Shown here: positions 1 through 42,931 of the stretch, one piece after another
Position numbering within the stretch: the stretch's first letter is position 1
How the letters are laid out: each line of letters begins with the position of its first letter
Origin: Candidatus Hydrogenedens sp.
GTDB lineage: Bacteria; Hydrogenedentota; Hydrogenedentia; Hydrogenedentales; Hydrogenedentaceae
Assembly (NCBI GenBank): GCA_049968235.1
Contig: JBMFRC010000004.1
Coordinates: forward strand, 96,001 to 160,000
DNA: 64,000 nucleotides
Reading direction: 5' to 3'
Notes under the pieces: generated by a model
Seen by the model: only the letters and a program-made list of their open reading frames with translations
Databases searched by the model: none
What the model was told of the DNA's origin: nothing
Program-made: the position numbers and the translations under genes

Positions 1-100
1 CACATGTTTCCATAAAATTCCTTCTTTAAAACCTAAGACACACTCCTTATAAAATGCTTTATAACAATTGTAAAACTTATCTAAACAAATTCAGATAAGG

Positions 101-121
101 GGTTATCACGAACAGTCCGAG
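101..121. repeat. 21-bp sequence GGTTATCACGAACAGTCCGAG, 20/21 identical to 3788-3808 (3' end of lipoprotein gene 3782..4741)
   Basis: Direct comparison of the two loci; degenerate flanking similarity (gtctga, ggtgg, attaaatc blocks) extends to ~60 bp. Confidence 0.7.
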
Positions 122-213
122 AGTATATGGATAGATTCGTCTGAGGTGGTGTATATTAAATCACATAAAACATAAAATATCAATAGTCTTCTCGACTGAA
201 TCTTAACAAAATA

Positions 214-1164
214 TTACCATTCGTCCAGTTCATAAGGACCTGCTCCAATTACTTGTTCACTCTCTACATCCACCCAAATTACTCCATGGTTCTCTTTATA
301 TCCTCCCCAAATTAACGGAACTTCCCAAGCATAAAAAAATTTGCTATTATTATTTGAAAGATTTTTTGGACCCCTTATTAAGAAAAAATTTATAGAAGGA
401 GCTATTACTAATTTAGGGTTTATATCTTCATTCATTTTCACAGAATACCTTGAAAAATACGGGTCATTTTCACACCATTTTTTTACTATATTTATTATCT
501 TTGTATTGTCTATTTTTATTTCAGGATTTATGTGATTAGAAGGAAGAGAAGGGGGAATATTAATATATCTGATAATTTCCCCATTCTCCATAGAAACCCA
601 TATTCTTAACACATGTTTTGAACGACAGGGAACATTTTTCAAACTAGATTTAAAAATAAACTCATAAGAACAAACTCTATCTAAACGGATTACTTTATAT
701 TCACTCGATATTTTATATGGGCTTTTTATTAAAAAATCTCCTGATTTTATTAAATTCTCAATTTTTTCCGAAGCTTTAGCTTCAGATAATAATTTATCAT
801 TCTTCACATCATTATCTTTTATAGTATTCATTAGATCAAGTAAATTTGTTATCTCAAAATAATAGACTCCCTTACATTCTCTGTCTATCCAGACATAATA
901 TTTGTTATCAAGTAATAAAGGTATATATTCACCTGATGGAATCTGAGAAGTTAAGAACTCACCTTTAAATTTATTCTCTTCTAAAATATTTATTTTTTCC
1001 ACTTTGTAATCCGCAACATTTGCAAAAAAATCCCTTATATAATTTTTACACTTTTCGTCTAACTCTTTTTCTTCCGAGTATAATGTTGATGTTAAACTAA
1101 ATAGAAGAAAACATATTATAATTAGATTTCTTTTTCTACTGTTCATCATTTTTTCATCCTCCAT
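214..1164 (-). CDS. hypothetical secreted protein (N-terminal signal peptide), Asn/Lys/Ile-rich; in AT-rich block
   Basis: ORF track; N-terminus MNSRKRNLIIICFLLFSLTSTLYS looks like a signal peptide; I recognise no domain; stop overlaps the start of the next gene. Confidence 0.5.
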   Translation of the reverse strand: MEDEKMMNSRKRNLIIICFLLFSLTSTLYSEEKELDEKCKNYIRDFFANVADYKVEKINILEENKFKGEFLTSQIPSGEYIPLLLDNKYYVWIDRECKGVYYFEITNLLDLMNTIKDNDVKNDKLLSEAKASEKIENLIKSGDFLIKSPYKISSEYKVIRLDRVCSYEFIFKSSLKNVPCRSKHVLRIWVSMENGEIIRYINIPPSLPSNHINPEIKIDNTKIINIVKKWCENDPYFSRYSVKMNEDINPKLVIAPSINFFLIRGPKNLSNNNSKFFYAWEVPLIWGGYKENHGVIWVDVESEQVIGAGPYELDEW

Positions 1165-1973
1165 TATTTCTTTTCAACAATTGCTATTTCATGCACTTCA
1201 TTATACGATGTATTTACAGCGATTAGAATTCTCTTTATACTACCTCTATTAAAGCACTTACCATTACTACTATTATGAAAGAATATAATGTGGTAACCAC
1301 TTATGAGATTGTCTGAAACAATGTCTTCAATTCCATTTTTGAAATTAGAAAGATAATTCATTTCTATTCCGAAATAATCGAGTATAGGCATCAGATGATA
1401 TTCAGAAATACAATTTTTAATAGATTTACTATCATTATTACTTAATGAAGAATATATATTTCTTTTAGAACGATACAAAAAACTGTATAAATTTCTAATC
1501 TGACAACTTTTCCTATCAAAAATAACCATTACATATGGGTCATACTGAAGATTAATTGAAAAGATGTTCACTATATCATTATTTTTATTTGGGAAACAAT
1601 TATTTTCAGGGACAAAAATAATTTCTATACCATTATTGTTTTGCTTAAAACATCCGAAAGGGAATTTACACTCATATATTGAATTAAGTAATAAAACAAT
1701 CTTATCGAAGTCTGTTTGTATCATTAGATTTTTGTCACATAAAGTTGTTTCTACTTTATCAATTTTTTCTAAATCTAATACTTTAGATGAAGCAAAGAAA
1801 CAATTACCTTCCCATAAACCAAGTTTAACTCCAATAGGATAAATAAATATTGAAGAAGAATGAATAATCTCTATTAAATTTTCTTTGCACATATTCAAAC
1901 AAAAATATCCTAAAGAGGAAAAAACCATAGTCAAGACCAAAATTACCAATAAAGATAGTAAAGTAACTCTCAT
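1164..1973 (-). CDS. hypothetical secreted protein (signal peptide), Cys-containing, AT-rich block
   Basis: ORF track; N-terminal hydrophobic signal MRVTLLSLLVILVLTMVFSS; stop/start overlap with downstream ORF suggests an operon. Confidence 0.5.
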   Translation of the reverse strand: MRVTLLSLLVILVLTMVFSSLGYFCLNMCKENLIEIIHSSSIFIYPIGVKLGLWEGNCFFASSKVLDLEKIDKVETTLCDKNLMIQTDFDKIVLLLNSIYECKFPFGCFKQNNNGIEIIFVPENNCFPNKNNDIVNIFSINLQYDPYVMVIFDRKSCQIRNLYSFLYRSKRNIYSSLSNNDSKSIKNCISEYHLMPILDYFGIEMNYLSNFKNGIEDIVSDNLISGYHIIFFHNSSNGKCFNRGSIKRILIAVNTSYNEVHEIAIVEKK

Positions 1974-2002
1974 ACTAACAATTCAGTCTATTTCTATTAA
2001 AG

Positions 2003-2695
2003 TTAAGGATAAAAATCCTGATATCCTAATCTCCAGAATTTATTAAATAAACAACAAAAAGACATTTTTTTCTTATTAAAATTATAGTAAAATTCAAAGG
2101 GAATGTTATACAAAACATCTGTAGAGAATTCTTTATTGTCTGAACTACCATAGATATTTATTCTTTCAACAGTCTCCTTTGGCCATAAATCAGCAAACCT
2201 CATACCACCTGAAATATAAATATTCTCATCCGATGTTTTAATAGAGTATAATTTCTTATCTTTTCTAAGCTGTAAATAATCTAATAAAGAAAGTGTTAAA
2301 TTAAATACTTCTTCTTCCCTATAGTTAAAAAATTTTTCTAATACAGAATATTTACCTATTGGAGGACCTTCATAGAATATTACATTAAGCGTTGCTGGAT
2401 CGGTTACCAAATAAAAAATTTTCCCATTATCTGTTTTATATTCTATATAATAATATTCTCTCACCCGTGAAAAATCCATAATATGCCAGGTATCAAAATC
2501 TCCTAAAAATCGTTTTTTAGGAACCGCATTTCTCTCACCTAAAATTTCTTGTAAAAATATAGTATTTGCTTTATATACCTCTTCAGGAACATCAGCAAGG
2601 GAATAAATCTCCAATGCTTCTCTGAATATAAATGCAGAACTCACCACTAATCCAAAAGCAAACAATATAATTATTATATATATTTTCTTTTCCAT
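2003..2695 (-). CDS. hypothetical secreted protein (signal peptide)
   Basis: ORF track; N-terminus MEKKIYIIIILFAFGLVVSSAF is signal-like; co-oriented and tightly spaced with its neighbours. Confidence 0.45.
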   Translation of the reverse strand: MEKKIYIIIILFAFGLVVSSAFIFREALEIYSLADVPEEVYKANTIFLQEILGERNAVPKKRFLGDFDTWHIMDFSRVREYYYIEYKTDNGKIFYLVTDPATLNVIFYEGPPIGKYSVLEKFFNYREEEVFNLTLSLLDYLQLRKDKKLYSIKTSDENIYISGGMRFADLWPKETVERINIYGSSDNKEFSTDVLYNIPFEFYYNFNKKKMSFCCLFNKFWRLGYQDFYP

Positions 2696-2717
2696 TTCTA
2701 TGTTTTTTTAATTAAAA

Positions 2718-3761
2718 TTAAAATATATCATCAAACCACTCATCTCCAAGTACTCTAAAATGAATATCGTATCCTGTTTCATCATAAGTATCTATCCATG
2801 CTTTATTTGCTGAGAGCGAAACTTTACGATAATTATATTCAGGAGCATAAACTAAATAATACCAAAAATAAGCGTCATATTTTAATAAGAGACTCTCCAG
2901 ATATTCTTCATCAAATCCTAATGCACAATTTGCATTGAAAACATCTTTCCAGGTGGATAATCTTGTTCCTGTATAACATGCAAAAAGATAGATAAATCTG
3001 TAGTTATGTTCCCTATTATAATAATTTACTGATATAGTATCTAATGCATCAAATTGTGAACATGCAGGAGGGTCTATGCATTCACAAGTAAGTGTGAAGT
3101 AACCGTCAACCTGTAAACATAATTGCTCACCATCAGCTGAATGTCCATCAAATACGAATATATCATGATGACATTTTAGTGATTCTAATACTGGGTCAGG
3201 GGTTGAAGGCTGGTCAATATATGTAACATAGCATCCTTGAGATTCTAATACACTCCGAGCATCAGATTCTCCTGGTAAAAGACTCCTTGTATCTCCATGA
3301 GCAATTAATACAGACGGTAATTTTTTAAACACACTTTTGACGTTAAGTTCATTGGTGTTAGGGGAAATGTGGATTTCGCCGTTTTGGCTTTCCCATTTGT
3401 TCATGTATATCTCCAATGGGTTGATACCGCCAATATTTTGATATTGACCATCTCCATTTTCTATCTCCCAATGGTCAAAGCTATATCCCAGACACGATTC
3501 CGCTGTCAGTTCTACTTTATTTGCATACATATCTTTATTGCTCAATATCTCATCTAAAAAACCCCCACTTGGAGTAGAATAATATCCATACAATATAGGT
3601 TTAAAAGGAAACGGGTTCCACCCATAATTCACTTTTCGACTATCATCAAACCCAATGGAGTCCGGATAAAAATTCACTAAAGGTCCCATTTTAATTACTC
3701 CCCCTTTATTAGCAATACATTCATTACCCGATATACAACCTACATCATAATTTAAGTACAC
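2718..3761 (-). CDS. hypothetical protein with caspase-like (clan CD cysteine peptidase-like) His/Cys dyad signature; GTG start; no signal peptide
   Basis: Hydrophobic strand then His (DIFVFDGHSADG), ~55 aa later a hydrophobic strand then Cys (FIYLFACYTG), like caspase SHG / QACxG spacing; start codon read as GTG at 3759-3761. Confidence 0.35.
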   Translation of the reverse strand: MYLNYDVGCISGNECIANKGGVIKMGPLVNFYPDSIGFDDSRKVNYGWNPFPFKPILYGYYSTPSGGFLDEILSNKDMYANKVELTAESCLGYSFDHWEIENGDGQYQNIGGINPLEIYMNKWESQNGEIHISPNTNELNVKSVFKKLPSVLIAHGDTRSLLPGESDARSVLESQGCYVTYIDQPSTPDPVLESLKCHHDIFVFDGHSADGEQLCLQVDGYFTLTCECIDPPACSQFDALDTISVNYYNREHNYRFIYLFACYTGTRLSTWKDVFNANCALGFDEEYLESLLLKYDAYFWYYLVYAPEYNYRKVSLSANKAWIDTYDETGYDIHFRVLGDEWFDDIF

Positions 3762-3781
3762 CTTATCCGTAACAAGTGCAA

Positions 3782-4741
3782 CTAAGTGGTTATCGCGAAC
3801 AGTCCGAGGATAAGGGGGGGATTAAATCCTGTCTGAACCGGTGGATACTCAATTGCTGGACGTACGAAATAATAATTGTCTTCCTGACTAAACCAGAAAA
3901 CCAAGGATTTACTTGTTTCTGGAAGAAATGCTAAATAAAAGTATGAATAATTGGTATTATAACAACTCCTTGAAAAATTACCTAAATAACAACCCGGATC
4001 TAATAAACAGCCATAACAATCATATCCATTACAAAACAGTGTTCCTGACACTCCTGATGGAAATAAAGATAAATTAACTGTATTATAGTAAATCTGGTAT
4101 GGAAAAGTATAATAGTATTGATATCGGATAGCTACATTCTCCGGTTTCAACATCTGTATCTGCACAACATTTTCAAAAAAACGAACCCCACCTATAGTCA
4201 ACATAAAATTTGGTGGAGAATTCCCTTCTACTTCTATTTCCGCAGTCTCTCCATAATCAAAATATTTCGTTTTGATCCATTGACTACTAGTCTCTATCAA
4301 TTCTTCATTACTTCCTCCTAAGATATTTACTTCTCCCGGTGCCGGCGCAGGATAAAATTTTTCTAAAACTACACTTAATCTTTGTCTCCCTTCCACCACC
4401 GCCGTTATTGTGGTATTTCCACTCAATATAAAACAGGTCACTGGTAAAAGGAAATTAGATACTGTATTTAGGCCATACGATTCCAAATAATTCCCATATA
4501 AAGATGCTTTCCATCTGATAAAGGTATAACCTTCTGCTGGAGTAAATTGCAATACTACCATCTGACCCTTTTTATATGTTGGGCCTTCAGGATATACCTC
4601 TATAGTCCCTGCATCTGTTAAAGTAGATCCAGTTAAATTCTTTATACTTAAGTCTAATGAAAAATTTTCTCCACAATCACACAGTTGGGGCAACTCCTGT
4701 GGGCAACCTGTTAAAAGAATGGAAACTATGCAAAAGAGCAA
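3782..4741 (-). CDS. hypothetical lipoprotein (lipobox LLTGC), Tyr/Asn/Gly-rich
   Basis: ORF track; N-terminus MLFCIVSILLTGC is a lipoprotein signal with Cys; C-terminus ...LILGLFAITT is encoded by the 21-bp sequence that recurs at 101-121. Confidence 0.5.
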   Translation of the reverse strand: MLFCIVSILLTGCPQELPQLCDCGENFSLDLSIKNLTGSTLTDAGTIEVYPEGPTYKKGQMVVLQFTPAEGYTFIRWKASLYGNYLESYGLNTVSNFLLPVTCFILSGNTTITAVVEGRQRLSVVLEKFYPAPAPGEVNILGGSNEELIETSSQWIKTKYFDYGETAEIEVEGNSPPNFMLTIGGVRFFENVVQIQMLKPENVAIRYQYYYTFPYQIYYNTVNLSLFPSGVSGTLFCNGYDCYGCLLDPGCYLGNFSRSCYNTNYSYFYLAFLPETSKSLVFWFSQEDNYYFVRPAIEYPPVQTGFNPPLILGLFAITT

Positions 4742-4803
4742 AGGAACAAAACATAATAGATTGTTATAAATTACCTTTTTCGTTTTTCTTCCCTCCTATT
4801 TCT

Positions 4804-6318
4804 TTATTGCGGGTTTATATTTTGCAGAAAAGATTTCTGTAATGGTTCTAAAGCAGGGTCGTAATTGGAAAATAGAGATTCTTCCAGGTCATTCATTCGC
4901 CGATTGTACTTTAACTGTTCCATGGGATGAATCTGCTGGGTTACTAATCTCGCTCGCAAATCCGAATTCGGTGTGCGTTCCGATATATCCCGATAATATC
5001 CGGTCACCTTTTCTCGTTCTCCACTTCTTCGACTCCCTTCTATTTCCATCGCTATCACCTCTAAACTCGCATCTATCGGACTTCGCTCTATCTGCTTCGC
5101 CCATGAATTTGCATTCCTCGCTATCTTTGAACCCGGATATTTTTTCGCCAGCCCGCCATATATCTCTCCTACCTCCGAGTACCAACCATATCGCAGAAAA
5201 TATCTACCCATTTTTTCCAACACACTTACCTGTTCATTATATAAATTTCTATCTATTACCCCAGGCAACACTCCCCAGTTTAATATCTCCTTGCCTAATT
5301 CCCGCATCCGTTTTACTTCATGTCCTTTCTGCAAATATTCTGCTAACAATAATTTCGCCCGTATCTGCACTACATCGCTGGCATCTGTCTGTTTGATTAC
5401 TTCCTCAAGGCTATCTCGAATTATCTTATCCCATTTCATATATTTACCTAATTGACTTAACATTACTATCTGCCCATATTGACATATACTATCCTTCTCA
5501 CTTACTATACCATGGGCTAACTTTTGTATTCCCAACTCTATCCTATTTCGTTCTCTATCTAATTCAGTTATCTTCTCAACTATACAACCTAAACTCGGCA
5601 TATCTGTCCCAATGCCCATCAATACACCCGCTCCATATACATTTAGCATCTCTACTACTCGTTCAAAAAAATATTTCTGTCCTTTTATATCCTCTACATA
5701 TTGTTTCTCCATATATTCCAATACCGGCAATAAAGACATCTGACGAACTATATTTAGACCTTTATAGGGCTTTGCCATTTCTAAAGTTTTCACTGAAAAT
5801 TGTATCGGGTCCTCTTTACAAAACTCCCTCGGCATTCCCAACATGCATATCACAGAGGAGATAAACTGCACACCTCGATGGAAACTATTTGTCAATCCAT
5901 ATAATTTTACATAGCCTGTATATTTCATCATATCTTTTTCATTCAATAATACCAGTCCACTTATTAACTCATCCGTCGGATATTTACCAAAATCTTCTAT
6001 TCGATTATCTCCCATTCCTCGCTCAAATTCGATTGTTCCAAATTTACCTCCCATGTATTGTTCCATGCCGAATATAAATAATTGGACAGGGCTTATCAGT
6101 ATATCTACACATTGCACATCATCCGCAGGCATCTCACGAAATAGATACACCAACCTCTTTAATCCGTCTCGTCCTTTGCCTGAGCATATCTCATCATAGG
6201 CAAGTTGTTCTTCTGCCTTCACCTTTTGTAAAAATGCTGGGTCAAGACTGTAGGAACTAATAGAACACAAACTACTGATAATTATTACACAACAGGAAAG
6301 ATATACAGACTTTCTCAT
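4804..6318 (-). CDS. hypothetical secreted protein (signal peptide), 504 aa
   Basis: ORF track; N-terminal signal MRKSVYLSCCVIIISSLCSISSYS; no domain recognised; composition less AT-skewed than genes to its left. Confidence 0.5.
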   Translation of the reverse strand: MRKSVYLSCCVIIISSLCSISSYSLDPAFLQKVKAEEQLAYDEICSGKGRDGLKRLVYLFREMPADDVQCVDILISPVQLFIFGMEQYMGGKFGTIEFERGMGDNRIEDFGKYPTDELISGLVLLNEKDMMKYTGYVKLYGLTNSFHRGVQFISSVICMLGMPREFCKEDPIQFSVKTLEMAKPYKGLNIVRQMSLLPVLEYMEKQYVEDIKGQKYFFERVVEMLNVYGAGVLMGIGTDMPSLGCIVEKITELDRERNRIELGIQKLAHGIVSEKDSICQYGQIVMLSQLGKYMKWDKIIRDSLEEVIKQTDASDVVQIRAKLLLAEYLQKGHEVKRMRELGKEILNWGVLPGVIDRNLYNEQVSVLEKMGRYFLRYGWYSEVGEIYGGLAKKYPGSKIARNANSWAKQIERSPIDASLEVIAMEIEGSRRSGEREKVTGYYRDISERTPNSDLRARLVTQQIHPMEQLKYNRRMNDLEESLFSNYDPALEPLQKSFLQNINPQ

Positions 6319-6596
6319 ACTCTATTCTCCTCTTTTAAGGTCTGTTCCTATTCAATTTTTCCTATACTACTTAATTAATTGTCTTTTTTAATTATAAAAA
6401 AAAAAAATTATTTGTCAAGACCTTTTTCTAAATTTTCTAAATTTTATAAATTAATTATTTTGAAAAAGAATGTTTTCTCCCATAAAGAACATTATTGAAC
6501 AAACCCTAAGTATGTATGACTTTTCTTTTATATAATATTTCTCCAAGGTAACATAAAAGTGAATAAAAACATAACTAACCCAACATATTCTAATCA

Positions 6597-23823: not shown

Positions 23824-26577
23824 TTATTTTTTAATACGAATTGTCTCACCGACTTGAAGGACTTTTTTTTCATCGAAATTATTAATCTCCATAAGTTCCT
23901 TCAAAGAGACGCCTACTTTTTTAGAAATTATATATAAAGAATCGCCCTTTTGAACAGTGTAAACATCTGTTTTAGACTGTTTGTTATTTTCCTCTGGAAT
24001 AACTTTTGTTTTTTCCGTGGTAGTTAGGGTAGATACTTGTATCCTATTTTTATTATCTTTATCTTTGTTTTGTTTTGCTACCTGTTGTATTTTTAGTTCT
24101 TGTCCAATTTTTAACTGTTTTGATGCATCTAAATTATTCCATTGCATAAGTTCATTAACAGTAATGTTATTCTTTCGTGCTATTAACCATAAATTATCTC
24201 CCGCTTGGACACGATATATGATAGTATTTTGGGAAGAACTATCCTCTTTCTTAGGCACTTTTTCTTGCGATATTTGGAAAGAACTATTCTCTTTTATAGA
24301 TGGTTTTTCTTGTGATATTTGGGGAATATTTCTTTTATCATTCGTTATTTCCGGTGATAAAATGATTTTTTGTCCTATTTGTAAATTTGAGTTTTCATTC
24401 AGGTTGTTTAACTCCATAATATTTTTTATATTTGTATTATTTTCTTTTGCTATCTTAGAAAGTGTATCCCCTTGCTTTATAATGTATATTGCCTGTCCTT
24501 GAGGCTTTTTCTCGTGAGGTTGGACATTATCGTTTATTTCAGGGTCATATAAATATATTTTTTGTCCTATTTGTAGAGAGAATTTATCATCCAGATTGTT
24601 CCATTGTTTTAATTTATTTATATCTACCTTATAAAAAGAGGCAATTTTCCCAACTGTATCTCCCTTTTGAACTTCATGCACTTTGTTTTCATTTTTTACT
24701 ATTGTAATCTCATTATTTTTGGGGATATCGGTGGAAATAGTTGTTGGCTTTGTCTCTGTTGTTTCTTTAATTGTTTCTTTTCCGACAAGGAGTCTTTGTC
24801 CTATATACAATATTGACTTTGAAGAAAGGTGGTTCATCTCCATAATTTTTTCAGGTTTTGTTGAGTATATTTTGGCAATTCCATTAATAGTATCTCCTGA
24901 TTTTACTACATGATAAATATCTTTCGTTTGCACTTTTTCTTCTTTCTGGAGAATAGGTTGGGATATTTCAACATTTTTTGAAGGGACTGGTTTTAAGGAT
25001 ATTTTATCGCCCACTTTTAATCTCTGGTCATTTTTCATGTTATTCCATACAGCAAGGTCTTCTACTTCAATTCCATATTTTTTACCGATAGCAAATAAAG
25101 TTTCTCCTTTTTTAACCAGATGGTAATCTTCTGATTGTTGTTCAGTCTCTCTTTTTGTCTCATTTTTGGCAAAACTGAAATGTTCCCTTTTAGAAAGAGG
25201 AACCTGTATTTCCATGCCGGGTTTTACAGATTTCACACTATTTAATCCGTTTACTTTTAACAATTCATTGACAGGAATGTCATATTTTTTTGCAATATGA
25301 TAAGCAGTTTCGCCTTTCTTAACTGTGTATGCAACCACTTCCGCTTGTTTAATAGATGGATTGTTTAATATGGCTGATAGTTTTGTGCCATCCCCAGCGG
25401 GCAACATTAATTTACATCCTGTCGGTGGAGTTGTTCCACGAACTAAAAATGGATTCCATGTAGAAAGTGTTCCGGGTGTATAACCCATTGCTTTATCTAA
25501 TGCATCTAGAGCATACATCCCTCGTATTTCTACTTCATCCCATTTAATAGGTTGATAGGGGGAGGGTGAAAAGCCATAAGGGACAGGGTCGTTACAAATA
25601 AGTATATAAGCAAGGAAGCGTGGAAGATATTTTTTTGTTTCATCTTTAATTTCGTAAGAGGCAGGAGGGGTCTCGATAAGTTTCCAGAAATTTCTATCGC
25701 CTCCATTGGCTTCAATTTTACGCATTAATGCTCCTTCGCCCATATTGTAAGCACTTATAGCCAGTTCCCAATTCCCTTTAAAGAAGTTATGAAGATTAAT
25801 TAAATACTCGATAGCGCAAGAAGTTGCTATAACCCAATTATACCTTTCATCAATATAAGAGTTTATTCGCATATTGTAGTGTTCTCCGGTTGAACGAATA
25901 AATTGCCACATACCCGCAGCACCCACAGAAGAGTATGCTTTTAGTTTATACATGCTTTCTACCATTGCTAACCAGCATAATTCTTGAGGTAAGCCTGCTT
26001 TTTTTAGGGATTCTCTTATATAGGGGACATAATACCCACTTCGGTGTAAACCCTCCTGAAAACGGTCGGGATACCTTGTCTGGGCATCTTCTATTTCGTA
26101 TAGAACTTTTTCCGGAACAGGAAATGGAATAGTAATAGAACTATAAGGAGGAGAGCCTTTCAGTCCTTCTATTATTTTATATGTATTAAGGGATTCAAGA
26201 TTTATTTTTCTCTCTGCTTCGGGGAGCATGTCCTTTTCCCATGATTCCAAATCGCTGAAGATACCGGGAACAATACCACCGCTAATTAGTGTCCTTCGGG
26301 CAGTTAAATACTTTTCTTGTGCTGTTTTTTTATCCCCTTTCTGGAGTGCCTTCTGTGCTTCTTCAAAATAAGCATTGGCTATCCTAATAGCCTGAATGGG
26401 AGAGGCTGTTGCCACAGGGGGTAATTCCTGAGATGGGATTTCCGGAGGAGGTGCAGGTCTAAAATGTATAGGTTTTAGATTATGTTCTTTTGCACATCCT
26501 GATAATAAATTTATAATGATAGATATACAAATCAAACCTGCAAGGGAAATCGAATAGTATAATTTTTTTCTATTCAT
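23824..26577 (-). CDS. membrane-bound lytic murein transglycosylase D-like lipoprotein with 7 C-terminal LysM domains
   Basis: Lipobox LLSGC; SLT domain with catalytic region AMVESMYKLKAYSSVGAAGMWQF; seven repeats of Y/H-x-V-x-x-G-D/E-T/S...I-A-x-K...L-x-x-x-N...L-x-x-G-Q. Confidence 0.8.
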   Translation of the reverse strand: MNRKKLYYSISLAGLICISIIINLLSGCAKEHNLKPIHFRPAPPPEIPSQELPPVATASPIQAIRIANAYFEEAQKALQKGDKKTAQEKYLTARRTLISGGIVPGIFSDLESWEKDMLPEAERKINLESLNTYKIIEGLKGSPPYSSITIPFPVPEKVLYEIEDAQTRYPDRFQEGLHRSGYYVPYIRESLKKAGLPQELCWLAMVESMYKLKAYSSVGAAGMWQFIRSTGEHYNMRINSYIDERYNWVIATSCAIEYLINLHNFFKGNWELAISAYNMGEGALMRKIEANGGDRNFWKLIETPPASYEIKDETKKYLPRFLAYILICNDPVPYGFSPSPYQPIKWDEVEIRGMYALDALDKAMGYTPGTLSTWNPFLVRGTTPPTGCKLMLPAGDGTKLSAILNNPSIKQAEVVAYTVKKGETAYHIAKKYDIPVNELLKVNGLNSVKSVKPGMEIQVPLSKREHFSFAKNETKRETEQQSEDYHLVKKGETLFAIGKKYGIEVEDLAVWNNMKNDQRLKVGDKISLKPVPSKNVEISQPILQKEEKVQTKDIYHVVKSGDTINGIAKIYSTKPEKIMEMNHLSSKSILYIGQRLLVGKETIKETTETKPTTISTDIPKNNEITIVKNENKVHEVQKGDTVGKIASFYKVDINKLKQWNNLDDKFSLQIGQKIYLYDPEINDNVQPHEKKPQGQAIYIIKQGDTLSKIAKENNTNIKNIMELNNLNENSNLQIGQKIILSPEITNDKRNIPQISQEKPSIKENSSFQISQEKVPKKEDSSSQNTIIYRVQAGDNLWLIARKNNITVNELMQWNNLDASKQLKIGQELKIQQVAKQNKDKDNKNRIQVSTLTTTEKTKVIPEENNKQSKTDVYTVQKGDSLYIISKKVGVSLKELMEINNFDEKKVLQVGETIRIKK

Positions 26578-39921: not shown

Positions 39922-41253
39922 TTATTTTTTAATTTCAACGAGCCCGAAAGTCATTGATGCTTCTGCAACGACTTGATTTTCTACAGAAGCAATTACTCTT
40001 GCTTTGAACAAATCATTTCGGTAATACAACATCTCTGCTTCTACAACAAGTTGGTCTCCGGGAACGACTAAGCGTCTTAGTGAAGCATTCTCTATCCCAA
40101 TGAAATATGCTTGATAAAGTGGGGGTTCTCCATTTTCACGGAATATAAGGACAGAAGAAACCTGTGCCATGGCTTCAAGAATTAAAACACTGGGCATTAC
40201 AGGAACATCAGGCCAGTGTCCTTGAAAGAATGGCTCGTTTACAGTTACATTTTTGATACCCACTACTTTTTTCATAGATGTAAATTCTATAATTCTATCC
40301 ACCAGGAGAAATGGGTAGCGATGCGGTAATATTCTTAATATTTTGTTTACATCTAAAACAGGGATTTGTCGGTGAGCAGTGGGTCTCGGGTCATGAACCG
40401 CATAAATGCCATATCCGTTTAAATATACTTTTTTAATTTGTTTTGTAAACATGACATTTTTTTCATGTCCGGACTTGACACCGATAATATGTCCAATTAG
40501 AGGTCGCCCTAAAAGATAGGTATCTCCAAGCAAATCAAGAATTTTATGGCGAACGAACTCATCCGGGAAACGAAGTCCATCATTTAGAATTTCTTCATCA
40601 CCAATAACGACTGCACTTTCAAGACTACCTCCCATAATCAATCCCTGTTCTTTTAACATTTTTACTTCTTTCAGAAAACAAAAAGTTCGGGCGGGGGCGA
40701 TTTGAGACATAAAGGTTTCTTCGTTTACGGGGAAACTTGCATACTGGGTTCCGATGGCTACATGGTCGTATGCAATAGTCATTGTTACTCGTAATTCATC
40801 GGAAGGGAGAATATTTAAGGTAACTTCATCCTGTCTATAATAAACAGGTCTATCCACAAGCAGTGCCCTTTTTGGCTCTTCTTGTTCGGTAATTCCTGCT
40901 CTTAAAAGGCAATTCATTACAGGGAGGGCACTACCATCTCCATTGGGTATTTCTTCATTGTCGAGTTCTATATATAAATTATCAATACCTAAACCTGCCA
41001 TTGCTGCTAAGCCATGTTCAACGGTGCGGACTTTAGCACTACCAATACCTATTGTCGTTCCTCGTGAGACATCAACAACATGGTCAATATTAGCAGGGAT
41101 AGCGGGTTTACCAGCCATATCTGTTCGTATAAAAATGATACCTGTATCGGGTGGAGCAGGTTTGAATGTTACTGTGGTCAAACTTCCACTATGTAATCCT
41201 ACTCCTGAAAAAGATACTTCTTTGCTAATGGTTCTTTGGTTTTTCATACGCAA
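39922..41253 (-). CDS. lpxC-fabZ: bifunctional UDP-3-O-acyl-N-acetylglucosamine deacetylase / 3-hydroxyacyl-ACP dehydratase (LpxC-FabZ fusion)
   Basis: N-terminal LpxC block (FVRHKILDLLGDTYLLG...KSGHEKN, matching E. coli VRHKMLDAIGDL...KSGH); C-terminal FabZ block (LPHRYPFLLVDRI...GHWPDVPVMPSVLILEAMAQ). Confidence 0.85.
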   Translation of the reverse strand: MRMKNQRTISKEVSFSGVGLHSGSLTTVTFKPAPPDTGIIFIRTDMAGKPAIPANIDHVVDVSRGTTIGIGSAKVRTVEHGLAAMAGLGIDNLYIELDNEEIPNGDGSALPVMNCLLRAGITEQEEPKRALLVDRPVYYRQDEVTLNILPSDELRVTMTIAYDHVAIGTQYASFPVNEETFMSQIAPARTFCFLKEVKMLKEQGLIMGGSLESAVVIGDEEILNDGLRFPDEFVRHKILDLLGDTYLLGRPLIGHIIGVKSGHEKNVMFTKQIKKVYLNGYGIYAVHDPRPTAHRQIPVLDVNKILRILPHRYPFLLVDRIIEFTSMKKVVGIKNVTVNEPFFQGHWPDVPVMPSVLILEAMAQVSSVLIFRENGEPPLYQAYFIGIENASLRRLVVPGDQLVVEAEMLYYRNDLFKARVIASVENQVVAEASMTFGLVEIKK

Positions 41254-42337: not shown

Positions 42338-42931
42338 TTATTTTTTGGGTTTGGATGTATCCGTTGCGGAAGAATTAGAATTTAAATATGTTAAAACTTT
42401 AGAAGTAATATCCATAGTTGGACTATGAAATAGCAAGCTACTTTTTAGAGATTTACCCGCATTAAAAACAAGGTGATAATTATCAGAAGTTGCTATTATA
42501 TTTACTGCATTCTGAATATCGTCCAGACATTCACGAATAATTCTTTCTTCTTTACTATCAATTGTCTTTTGTCGTTTCTCAAGTTCAGCCCGATATGATG
42601 CTGCTTCTTGTTCTATCTTCATTTTCAAATCAAGTTTTTCTTCATCGCTCAGGGTTGCTTTACCGGATTCAAGTTTTTTACGGTCTTCTTCAATGCGGTT
42701 CATTAAACTATCTAGGTCTTTTTGCTGAGTGTCTACTTCTTTCTGGAGTTCTTCGTATTTTTGTTTTCTTTTATTATATTCCCTCATAATAAGTTCAACA
42801 TCGACAACAGCGATTCTGTAAGATGTTCCTGTACCTGTAGTTTTAGCAGGTTCTTGTGCTGTTACATACCTTAAAGGAATTAAAATACAACTTAAAGCGA
42901 ATAACGAAATGAAAAAATATCTCCCTTTCAC
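42338..42931 (-). CDS. skp: OmpH/Skp-like periplasmic chaperone
   Basis: 197 aa, signal peptide, highly charged coiled-coil (QKYEELQKEVDTQQKDLDSLMNRIEEDRKKLES); canonical position after bamA. Confidence 0.7.
   Translation of the reverse strand: MKGRYFFISLFALSCILIPLRYVTAQEPAKTTGTGTSYRIAVVDVELIMREYNKRKQKYEELQKEVDTQQKDLDSLMNRIEEDRKKLESGKATLSDEEKLDLKMKIEQEAASYRAELEKRQKTIDSKEERIIRECLDDIQNAVNIIATSDNYHLVFNAGKSLKSSLLFHSPTMDITSKVLTYLNSNSSATDTSKPKK

What the first reader, a model, noticed from the sequence alone, without database searches (positions are those of the whole stretch)
77..132. Short near-identical sequence at two gene 3' boundaries inside the AT-rich block
GGTTATC(A/G)CGAACAGTCCGAG occurs at 101-121, in non-coding DNA just downstream of gene 214..1164, and at 3788-3808, where it encodes the C-terminal LGLFAITT* of lipoprotein 3782..4741. 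Flanks retain degenerate similarity (gtctga, ggtgg, attaaatc blocks) over ~60 bp. Read in the matching frame, the 77-132 copy encodes ...YPYTLGLFVITPYLNLFR* but has no start codon, and it is not in frame with the upstream gene. So it looks like a decayed remnant of a paralogous 3' end, or a recombination/cassette-junction site at which N-terminal parts are exchanged.
Basis: seen in the sequence. Interest (0 to 1): 0.5.

Follow-up and report, generated by a model that had tools for sequence, protein, structure and literature searches.

The report
Relic of a spare toxin-gene cassette
The repeated 21-base sequence is real. It is the best-preserved piece of a decayed partial copy of the middle of a neighbouring surface-lipoprotein toxin-like gene, the leftover that swapping of toxin "cassettes" leaves behind, so it is an ordinary feature of a known kind of locus in a family that appears undescribed.

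Summary

In that frame, copy 1 (window ~70-224) is a decayed fragment with two in-frame stops and one frameshift. It matches residues 276-324 of this protein.

Homologues share the N-terminal body but carry at least seven different C-terminal domains. Their downstream genes change with the C-terminal domain, and an upstream ~500-aa gene stays constant. Related contigs place 5'-truncated C-terminal cassettes exactly where copy 1 sits. They also show abrupt identity breakpoints at a shared 5' "handle".

This is therefore a polymorphic-toxin-type locus, and copy 1 is the relic handle of a displaced or orphan cassette. The rest of the putative orphan lies off the window and was not seen.

The parts
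101..121 (-). Copy 1 of the 21-mer. In the relevant frame it encodes (S)RTVRDN inside a decayed gene fragment.
70..224 (-). Decayed 5' 'handle' of a presumed orphan or displaced C-terminal cassette. It reads ILLRFSREDY*YFMFYVI*YTPPQTNLSIYSRTVRDNPLSEFV*, is homologous to residues ~276-324 of the main gene, carries two in-frame stops and a 1-nt deletion, and overlaps the last codons of accessory gene 214..1164.
1..90 (-). Frame open to the window edge (ICLDKFYNCYKAFYKECVLGFKEGILWKHV..), with an RBS+ATG in another frame at 13. This may be the continuation of the orphan cassette. Similarity to the main gene is not significant here.
   Evidence: position argued from L012/L007/L009
76..99 (-). Perfect 10-bp AU-rich hairpin (CUUAUCUGAA-UUUG-UUUAGAUAAG) followed by UUUUAC, directly 3' of copy 1. 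It is absent at copy 2.
3788..3808 (-). Copy 2 of the 21-mer. It lies mid-gene and encodes (P)RTVRDN in the frame that continues into ORF 2718..3761.
3771..3916 (-). Stretch of the main gene homologous to copy 1 (residues 276-324: SLVFWFSQEDNYYFVRPAIEYPPVQTGFNPPPYPRTVRDNHLVAL). It is the end of the first module, just before the second B-repeat module.
3814..3820 (-). C7 homopolymer (G7 on + strand), the only G/C run of 7 or more in the 64 kb. It is C8 in the near-identical contig L001, and the length difference splits or fuses the main gene.
2718..4783 (-). Main gene, a polymorphic lipoprotein of ~674 aa after the 1-nt correction. It contains lipobox LTGC, the C.C motif, Flg_new_2 B-repeat (about 4400-4615), a second B-repeat (about 3399-3572) and the C-terminal domain. 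There is no canonical start before the signal peptide: AGGAGGG + 7 nt + ACG at 4783..4781.
2721..3344 (-). C-terminal clan CD (caspase/gingipain/CHAT-fold) peptidase domain, with His in FDGHSADG and Cys in LFACYTG.
2003..2695 (-). Accessory gene A (230 aa, N-terminal TM/signal). It is conserved in order in L007 and L012.
1164..1973 (-). Accessory gene B (269 aa). It is conserved in order in L007 (weakly) and L012.
214..1164 (-). Accessory gene C (316 aa, signal peptide, ..FYAWEVP..IWVDVE..VIGAG type). This family follows every clan CD cassette examined and is the candidate immunity or inhibitor protein.
4804..6318 (-). Upstream 504-aa secreted protein. It is conserved next to family members whatever their C-terminal domain type, so it is a candidate constant partner.

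Best explanation
The two 21-mers are the best-preserved part of a ~140-150-nt duplicated coding segment in a polymorphic-toxin-type locus.

The main gene (window 2718..~4783, - strand) encodes an outer-surface lipoprotein. It has a constant N-terminal body of InlB-type B-repeats and a replaceable C-terminal module, here a clan CD cysteine-peptidase domain. Three accessory genes follow it. The last of them belongs to a family that always accompanies this C-terminal domain and is the likely immunity or inhibitor protein.

Copy 2 lies inside the main gene, just before the second B-repeat module. Copy 1 lies directly after the last accessory gene. It is the 5' 'handle' of a displaced or orphan cassette. 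This is the sequence left when a new [handle-C-terminal module-accessory genes] unit recombined into the gene and pushed the previous 3' part downstream.

Shown: the homology, its frame and its decay; the split of the main gene by a homopolymer indel; the peptidase fold; the family's variable C-termini; co-variation of the downstream genes; and orphan cassettes and recombination breakpoints in relatives.

Inferred: that an orphan C-terminal module continues to the left of the window; that the protein is a toxin and the accessory protein its immunity factor; and that the handle arose by cassette displacement rather than plain duplication.

In its present state copy 1 carries two stops and a frameshift. 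A crossover in the 21-mer would give a truncated protein (..RTVRDNPLSEFV*), so copy 1 is most likely a non-functional relic.
For: (1) Frame and gene model. L001 (NCBI GCA_049969095.1, 99.92% identical) has C8 where the window has C7, and a 634-aa gene is called through the site. The corrected ORF is 674 aa.

(2) Copy 1 matches residues 276-324 of that protein in the RTVRDN frame and has two in-frame stops. DNA similarity ends near window 70-84.

(4) An exhaustive HMMER search found 56 relatives. Full-length members share the lipobox, C.C motif and B-repeats, but their C-termini differ: clan CD, DUF7689, DUF6973, Peptidase_M15_3 and at least three unannotated types.

(5) The downstream gene tracks the C-terminal domain. 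The YAWEVP-type protein follows clan CD cassettes in the window, L006, L007, L008, L009, L010 and L012. Unrelated genes follow the DUF7689 and DUF6973 members. The upstream 504-aa gene is conserved regardless of type.

(6) Synteny. L012, the closest relative (69% DNA identity over 3.2 kb), and L007 have the same order of C-terminal domain and three accessory genes. Next comes a 5'-truncated second copy of the C-terminal module at the position of copy 1. L009 is an array of at least four such cassettes.

(7) Recombination. L007 and L009 are 99.66% identical for 3264 nt and diverge abruptly ~190 nt into the orphan cassette. L008 and L007 break at the same point. Two cassettes within L009 share a 179-nt handle at 86% identity.

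(8) This matches the published definition of polymorphic toxin loci, in which cassettes occur as toxin-immunity pairs that recombine onto a constant 5' gene body and Tox-Caspase appears as a C-terminal toxin (PMC3482391). It also matches start-less mafB-CT cassettes (PMC4287609).
Against: - The sequence left of window position 1 is unavailable, so no orphan C-terminal module was actually seen here. The 83 nt left of the handle show no significant similarity to the main gene.
- No toxicity or immunity has been tested for any family member. A clan CD peptidase could equally be a surface or nutrient protease with an inhibitor or chaperone.
- Three accessory genes per cassette is more than the usual single immunity gene.
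- The main gene itself looks damaged: ACG where a start is expected, and a frameshift in each of the two assemblies. The whole locus may be decaying, or the assemblies may carry homopolymer errors.
- The structure prediction for the accessory protein failed (pLDDT 46.8).
- No further copies of the 21-mer were found elsewhere, but the source genome was apparently not searchable.
Confidence: 0.75

Rival explanations
1. Live switching site. The 21-38-nt near-identical core is maintained as a recombination handle. Loop-out between the two direct repeats, or gene conversion, swaps the C-terminal module of the lipoprotein.
For: The core is better preserved than its flanks: 20/21 against 57% outside, and the probability of such a run is 0.006-0.025. 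It lies at the 3' end of the homologous span, where homology stops. Relatives show breakpoints at an analogous handle.
Against: Copy 1 has two stops upstream of the core and, downstream, a stop six codons after it plus a 1-nt deletion. A crossover in the core would therefore yield a truncated product. About 21 nt of identity is at the lower limit for homologous recombination (general knowledge). The RTVRDN stretch is not conserved across the family.
Confidence: 0.1
2. Plain decayed tandem duplication. A partial duplicate of the gene is rotting in an intergenic region and has no connection to cassette exchange.
For: The fragment carries stops and a frameshift. Nothing beyond the ~150-nt fragment is demonstrably homologous within the window.
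Against: The fragment sits exactly where intact 5'-truncated cassettes lie in three related loci, directly after the YAWEVP-type gene. The family is demonstrably polymorphic with recombination breakpoints.
Confidence: 0.1
3. One reading: a shared C-terminal tail (..LGLF[A/V]IT) or a 3'-end element marking the ends of two genes, such as a sorting signal.
For: In the window as given, ORF 3782..4741 does end ..LILGLFAITT*.
Against: The tail exists only because of the C7 frameshift, and the C8 contig reads through. Copy 1 in that frame has no start and is not in frame with the upstream gene. No homologue ends with this tail. Six-frame search of the window finds only the two copies plus one unrelated LGLFA at 42712.
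Confidence: 0.02
4. A cis-acting RNA or DNA element, such as a terminator or processing site, a riboswitch-like motif, or the att or recombinase site of a 3.7-kb insertion.
For: The two copies are direct repeats 3687 nt apart and flank four genes. A hairpin plus U-run lies next to copy 1.
Against: There is no Rfam match. The two copies share no fold, and copy 2 is no more stable than its shuffles (z -0.17). The hairpin is absent at copy 2. None of the seven neighbouring proteins has a recombinase or integrase domain. Similarity is best explained at codon level, with a synonymous mismatch and a protein-level alignment across indels.
Confidence: 0.02
5. Chance similarity in AT-rich DNA.
For: The 21-mer also occurs once each in three unrelated genomes among 596 Gb, about the number I expect by chance.
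Against: No match is expected within 64 kb. The flanks align over ~150 nt, and the translated alignment scores 11 sd above shuffles.
Confidence: 0.01

Closest known systems
Polymorphic toxin systems with standalone C-terminal cassettes (Zhang, Aravind et al. 2012, PMC3482391), Sec/T2SS-exported class with Tox-Caspase C-terminal domains
   Same: It has a constant N-terminal body with a signal and variable C-terminal enzymatic domains among homologues. The downstream gene co-varies with the C-terminal domain. 5'-truncated or start-less cassettes lie downstream and share a short conserved 5' stretch with the full gene. Closely related strains show recombination breakpoints.
   Different: The scaffold is a lipoprotein built of InlB-type B-repeats (Flg_new_2) rather than RHS, filamentous haemagglutinin, PAAR or LXG. 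One cassette type has three accessory genes. A conserved ~500-aa upstream partner is present. No toxicity has been shown. In this window the junction lies before a second B-repeat module rather than directly before the toxin domain.
Neisseria MafB / mafB-CT cassettes (PMC4287609)
   Same: It is a compact, non-filamentous secreted toxin with downstream alternative C-terminal cassettes, each followed by its immunity gene. Some cassettes lack an initiation codon and share a conserved 5' region that could allow recombination. An upstream partner gene (mafA) is present.
   Different: No sequence relationship was detected or claimed. MafB is not a lipoprotein (MafA is), and its motifs and toxin domains differ.
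Myxobacterial SitA lipoprotein toxins (sitBAI; PMC5562445)
   Same: These are polymorphic lipoprotein toxins with a lipobox, a variable C-terminal toxin domain, a downstream immunity gene and an upstream signal-peptide partner gene (sitB). The layout is analogous to 4804..6318 / main gene / accessory genes.
   Different: SitA is restricted to Myxococcales, is delivered by TraA/B outer-membrane exchange and mostly carries nucleases. No homology was found here, and the delivery route here is unknown.
CdiA-CT / Rhs-CT orphan modules (VENN or PxxxxDPxGL junctions)
   Same: A short conserved stretch marks the border between shared and variable sequence and is retained at the head of orphan modules.
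   Different: There is no family-wide junction motif here. RTVRDN is lineage-specific, and orphans in different lineages are truncated at different points.
Homopolymer phase-variable surface-protein genes (contingency loci)
   Same: A C7/C8 tract inside a surface lipoprotein gene differs between two 99.9%-identical genomes and toggles full-length against truncated product. It is the longest G/C run in 64 kb.
   Different: Only two observations exist. The other indels between the assemblies are also in homopolymers (T3/T4, T11/T12), so sequencing or assembly error is an equally good explanation.

Membership tests
Polymorphic toxin system (sensu Zhang et al. 2012) | Exported multidomain protein with an N-terminal trafficking signal | tested here: met
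   A lipoprotein signal ending in the lipobox L-T-G-C was read from the sequence. Homologues P0003, P0014, P0024, P0025 and P0026 have full lipoprotein signals. Caveat: no canonical start codon precedes the signal in this window.
Polymorphic toxin system (sensu Zhang et al. 2012) | Homologues share the N-terminal body but carry unrelated C-terminal domains | tested here: met
   Searches show clan CD, DUF7689, DUF6973, Peptidase_M15_3 and at least three unannotated C-termini on the same scaffold.
Polymorphic toxin system (sensu Zhang et al. 2012) | The C-terminal domain is an enzymatic toxin | tested here: inconclusive
   The fold is clan CD peptidase with His and Cys in place, and Tox-Caspase is a listed toxin class. 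Toxicity itself cannot be tested with these tools.
Polymorphic toxin system (sensu Zhang et al. 2012) | A cognate immunity gene lies immediately downstream and co-varies with the toxin domain | tested here: met
   Co-variation is shown. The YAWEVP-type gene follows all clan CD cassettes, and unrelated genes follow DUF7689 and DUF6973. Immunity function was not tested, and the structure model failed.
Polymorphic toxin system (sensu Zhang et al. 2012) | Standalone or orphan C-terminal cassettes lie downstream and share a 5' stretch with the full gene | tested here: inconclusive
   This is met in relatives L007, L008, L009 and L012. In the window only the decayed 5' stretch is visible, and the rest lies beyond the window edge.
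Polymorphic toxin system (sensu Zhang et al. 2012) | Evidence of cassette replacement by recombination | tested here: met
   This was seen in relatives only. The 99.66% identity between L007 and L009 stops abruptly inside the orphan cassette, and L008/L007 break at the same point.
Shared C-terminal sorting tail (PEP-CTERM-like and similar) | The same hydrophobic tail ends several proteins and is in frame with them | tested here: not met
   The tail results from a frameshift. No homologue ends that way. The motif search finds only the two copies.
Site-specific recombination or att site, or shufflon | A recombinase gene lies nearby and the repeats bound a mobile or invertible segment | tested here: not met
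   The neighbouring proteins have no recombinase domain. The repeats are direct, and their similarity is at codon level and extends ~150 nt with indels.
Structured RNA family | A match to a covariance model, or a shared stable fold | tested here: not met
Phase-variable contingency gene | A coding homopolymer whose length varies reversibly within a population | tested here: inconclusive
   C7 against C8 between two near-identical assemblies, in the longest G/C run in the window. Read-level data are not available.

The most novel reading that the evidence does not exclude
The C7/C8 tract six bases upstream of the 21-mer is a genuine slipped-strand (or -1 frameshifting) switch. It toggles this lipoprotein between a scaffold-only form and a full-length peptidase-toxin form. 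The adjacent conserved core is still used as a recombination handle. The locus would then combine phase variation with cassette switching, in an undescribed B-repeat lipoprotein toxin system that has a dedicated upstream partner protein.
Probability: 0.1. Interest if true: 0.55.

Novelty: new member of a known kind. Interest (0 to 1): 0.33.

Why it matters
The repeat itself is explained by a well-known process, relic handles of displaced toxin cassettes, so it is not surprising to a specialist.

The by-product is of moderate value. It is a coherent and apparently undescribed polymorphic lipoprotein family with four parts:
- a B-repeat scaffold;
- at least seven C-terminal domain types, including a clan CD peptidase that matches no Pfam or NCBIfam model;
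- a dedicated accessory or candidate immunity family (YAWEVP type);
- a constant ~500-aa upstream partner.

The family occurs in uncultured low-GC diderm bacteria. It could be tested as a new contact- or surface-dependent antagonism system. It also assigns a context to DUF7689 and DUF6973.

There is also a practical lesson. A single homopolymer indel made a mid-gene sequence look like a gene end.

Tried and rejected
- 21-mer in public collections. Genomes gave 3 unrelated hits (Acetobacteraceae, Dehalococcoidia, Pseudomonadota), close to the roughly 2 I expect by chance. Metagenomes gave 0 and viral contigs gave 0. The source genome seems absent or masked, so genome-wide copy number could not be measured.
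- Word-indexed protein search with the corrected 674-aa protein found nothing useful. Only the exhaustive HMMER search found the family.
- Pfam and NCBIfam on the neighbouring proteins gave only Flg_new_2 on the N-terminal part. PDB sequence search on the C-terminal half gave nothing.
- Tests of the RNA-element idea were negative: Rfam and folding of both strands of both copies. The promoter/terminator scan was at background level.
- Extension of homology to the left of window 84 was not significant at either protein or DNA level.
With 2 sequences it gave pLDDT 46.8 and is unusable.
- Literature search for DUF6973 and for the assembly accessions found no papers.
- Exact-protein look-up of ORF 3782..4741 was not on record. 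This was the first hint that other assemblies call the gene differently.

Full report
OBSERVATION

The 21-mer GGTTATC[A/G]CGAACAGTCCGAG is present at 101-121 and 3788-3808 and nowhere else in the window, even with three mismatches allowed. None of 100 dinucleotide-preserving shuffles gave any match. Ungapped similarity extends over 84-121 / 3771-3808 at 84%. A gapped alignment extends it to about 64-211 / 3752-3898, which is 148 columns at 62% identity. All genes in this part of the window are on the - strand. The region is 27-32% G+C against about 34% for the window.

THE '3' BOUNDARY' AT COPY 2 IS A FRAMESHIFT EFFECT

An exact-protein look-up of gene 214..1164 returned a 5271-bp NCBI contig (GCA_049969095.1, JBMFPN010000220.1 = L001). 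It equals window 5312..44 at 99.92% identity. The two sequences differ by two SNPs and two homopolymer indels:
- The C-run on the - strand at 3814-3820 has 7 C in the window and 8 C in L001.
- A T-run at 2857 has 3 T in the window and 4 T in L001.

With 8 C the 'lipoprotein' ORF does not stop at 3782. It reads ..NPPPYPRTVRDNHLVALVTDKVYLNYDVGC.. and continues into ORF 2718..3761, and L001 carries a single 634-aa gene call. Combining C8 with the window's T3 gives one 674-aa ORF. The ..LILGLFAITT* tail is therefore an out-of-frame product.

In the RTVRDN frame the only mismatch in the 21-mer is a synonymous CGT/CGC change.

The G7/C7 tract is the only G/C run of 7 or more in the 64 kb. A second contig of the same assembly (L005) differs from the window by two SNPs and a T11/T12 indel. 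I cannot tell whether C7/C8 is real slippage or a homopolymer error.

WHAT COPY 1 IS

tblastn of the corrected protein against the window finds, besides the gene itself, residues 276-324 matching window 224..84 on the - strand (45% over 49 aa, E=0.005). The two sequences compare as follows:
- Copy 1: ILLRFSREDY*YFMFYVI*YTPPQTNLSIYSRTVRDNPLSEFV*
- Main gene: SLVFWFSQEDNYYFVRPAIEYPPVQTGFNPPPYPRTVRDNHLVALV

The Smith-Waterman score is 78 against 29+-4.4 for shuffles (0/2000). Copy 1 is thus a decayed fragment of the middle of a paralogous or ancestral copy of the main gene. It has two in-frame stops, and the DNA alignment shows a 1-nt deletion.

Left of about position 84 there is no significant similarity at either protein or DNA level, although one frame stays open to the window edge. 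The 21-mer is somewhat better preserved than its flanks, which are 57% identical. The probability of a 20/21 run somewhere in the span is 0.006-0.025. It sits at the 3' end of the homologous span.

WHAT THE GENE IS

The N-terminal half has a lipobox (LTGC), a C.C motif and a Flg_new_2 (divergent InlB B-repeat) domain. The word-indexed protein search found nothing. An exhaustive HMMER search with the C-terminal half found 56 relatives.

Full-length relatives of about 590-675 aa (P0003, P0005, P0014, P0024-26) share several features: the lipoprotein signal, the C.C motif, the B-repeats and a conserved stretch ..GQGVVTSPxF..WNP..GWxFxHWE..YMNWW..HVPxG..AVF. After that stretch they diverge. The C-terminal types seen are:
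- the same H/C domain as here (P0003, P0005, P0008, P0010 and others);
- DUF7689 (P0014, P0037);
- DUF6973 (P0026);
- Peptidase_M15_3 (P0046);
- at least three unannotated types.

LOCUS ORGANISATION IN RELATIVES

Five related loci bear on the finding.

- L012, with L013 (Logan), is the closest relative, at 69% DNA identity over 3.2 kb. It has the same order: C-terminal domain, then genes of 237, 269 and 313 aa. An ORF overlaps the end of the 313-aa gene: MSSTVFYNMFDFSDGSRIKNYSWNSFFFSPITDGYYLTPSGGFWDEILRHKDV.. It is 65% identical to residues ~352-395 of the window's main protein. So a 5'-truncated second copy of the C-terminal module lies exactly where copy 1 lies.
- L007 (JGI) has the same layout, with an intact 241-aa 5'-truncated cassette (P0007) after the third accessory gene.
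- L009 (GCA_964549105.1) is an array of at least four cassettes, each followed by one to three accessory genes. One cassette's reading frame extends upstream of its called start with no start codon.
- L007 and L009 are 99.66% identical over 3264 nt. That identity stops abruptly ~190 nt into the orphan cassette, after which they encode different C-terminal domains. L008 and L007 (91.9% identical) break at the same point. Inside L009, two cassettes share a 179-nt 5' handle at 86% identity. This is direct evidence for cassette replacement at a conserved handle.

The accessory protein family of 214..1164 (..FYAWEVP..IWVDVE..VIGAG) follows every clan CD cassette, including the distant P0003 and P0005 loci (E 9e-14 and 5e-11; alignment). 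The DUF7689 and DUF6973 members are followed by unrelated genes.

The upstream gene 4804..6318 has homologues next to both clan CD and DUF7689 members (E 1e-20 and 3e-24). It therefore belongs to the constant part of the system.

INTERPRETATION

These features match the published definition of polymorphic toxin systems. That definition includes a constant 5' gene body, C-terminal toxin cassettes organised as toxin-immunity pairs, arrays of cassettes downstream of the full gene and replacement by recombination. Caspase-like domains are among the C-terminal toxins and Sec/T2SS is among the export routes (PMC3482391). Start-less cassettes that share a conserved 5' region are described for mafB-CT (PMC4287609). 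Lipoprotein polymorphic toxins with an upstream partner gene are described for sitBAI (PMC5562445).

I conclude that copy 1 is the relic 5' handle of a displaced or orphan cassette and that copy 2 is the corresponding stretch of the resident gene. Three points remain inferred rather than shown:
- an orphan module continues beyond the window edge;
- the peptidase acts as a toxin;
- the YAWEVP protein is its immunity factor or inhibitor.

Copy 1 carries stops and a frameshift, so a crossover within the 21-mer would produce ..RTVRDNPLSEFV*. It is most likely no longer functional.

RIVALS

- Chance is excluded.
- A shared sorting tail is excluded.
- An RNA element finds no support. There is no Rfam match and the copies share no fold. 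An AU-rich 10-bp hairpin plus U-run at 99..76 next to copy 1 is specific to that copy.
- A recombinase site is unsupported. No recombinase domain lies nearby, and the similarity is at codon level.
- Two readings remain open at about 0.1 each: a live recombination handle, and a plain duplication relic.

LIMITS

- The 21-mer searches of genomes, metagenomes and viral contigs found only three unrelated hits in genomes, about what chance would give. The source organism is evidently not searchable, so the genome-wide copy number is unknown.
- The organism is an uncultured low-GC diderm bacterium, judged from BamA, an LpxC-FabZ fusion and many glycoside hydrolases.
- The accessory-protein structure could not be modelled.

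VERDICT

The stated anatomy (two gene ends, shared tail) is wrong. The 'cassette junction / decayed paralogue' idea is partly right. The phenomenon is a known kind, seen here in a family that appears undescribed.

Noticed in passing
window 4781-4797 (- strand): The main lipoprotein gene has no canonical start in front of its signal peptide. A strong RBS (AGGAGGG, 4797..4791) is followed after 7 nt by ACG (4783..4781), then AAA AAG GTA ATT .. = (M)KKVIYNNLLCFVPLLFCIVSILLTGC. This is either an ATG>ACG mutation (gene decay) or a near-cognate start. The near-identical contig L001 has the same sequence, and its gene caller used the TTG at 4741, inside the signal peptide.
   Followed up: partly
window 3814-3820: The G7 (C7 on the coding strand) tract is the longest G/C homopolymer in the 64 kb. 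It is C8 in the 99.92%-identical NCBI contig, and the difference toggles a truncated against a full-length lipoprotein. It could be phase variation or a homopolymer sequencing error.
   Followed up: partly
window 2857 and 6396: Two further homopolymer indels separate the window from the NCBI assembly. T3 against T4 at 2857 truncates the C-terminal domain in L001 and creates a spurious 53-aa ORF (P0002). T12 against T11 at 6396 is intergenic. Three of the seven differences found in 13 kb are homopolymer indels.
   Followed up: yes
window 4804-6318 (- strand): This 504-aa signal-peptide protein has no Pfam match. Homologues lie immediately upstream of family members with different C-terminal domains (L010: split into 309+199 aa; L014: 475 aa). 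It is a candidate constant partner, by analogy with sitB or mafA.
   Followed up: partly
window 76-99 (- strand): A perfect 10-bp AU-rich hairpin (CUUAUCUGAA UUUG UUUAGAUAAG) followed by UUUUAC lies directly 3' of copy 1. It is partly built from the repeated sequence and is absent at copy 2. It may be a weak terminator or stabiliser after the accessory genes.
   Followed up: no
L009 1-8503 (GCA_964549105.1 CAZJTZ010000051.1): This contig is an array of at least four 5'-truncated clan CD cassettes, one reduced to a 95-aa remnant. Each is followed by one to three accessory genes, and a 73-nt inverted match (6-78 against 1558-1486, 90%) was also seen.
   Followed up: partly
L014 1071-1895: A Y1 (IS200/IS605-type) transposase gene lies just upstream of the DUF7689-type family locus.
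   Followed up: no
P0014/P0037 (DUF7689), P0026 (DUF6973), P0046 (Peptidase_M15_3): Two Pfam domains of unknown function occur as alternative C-terminal modules on the same lipoprotein scaffold as a peptidoglycan-peptidase domain and a clan CD peptidase. This suggests they are toxin or effector domains.
   Followed up: partly
window 23824-26577 and 39922-41253 (- strand): The window also encodes a 917-aa protein with an SLT lytic transglycosylase domain and seven LysM repeats, and an LpxC-FabZ fusion protein. Together with BamA, these show that the organism is a diderm.
   Followed up: no
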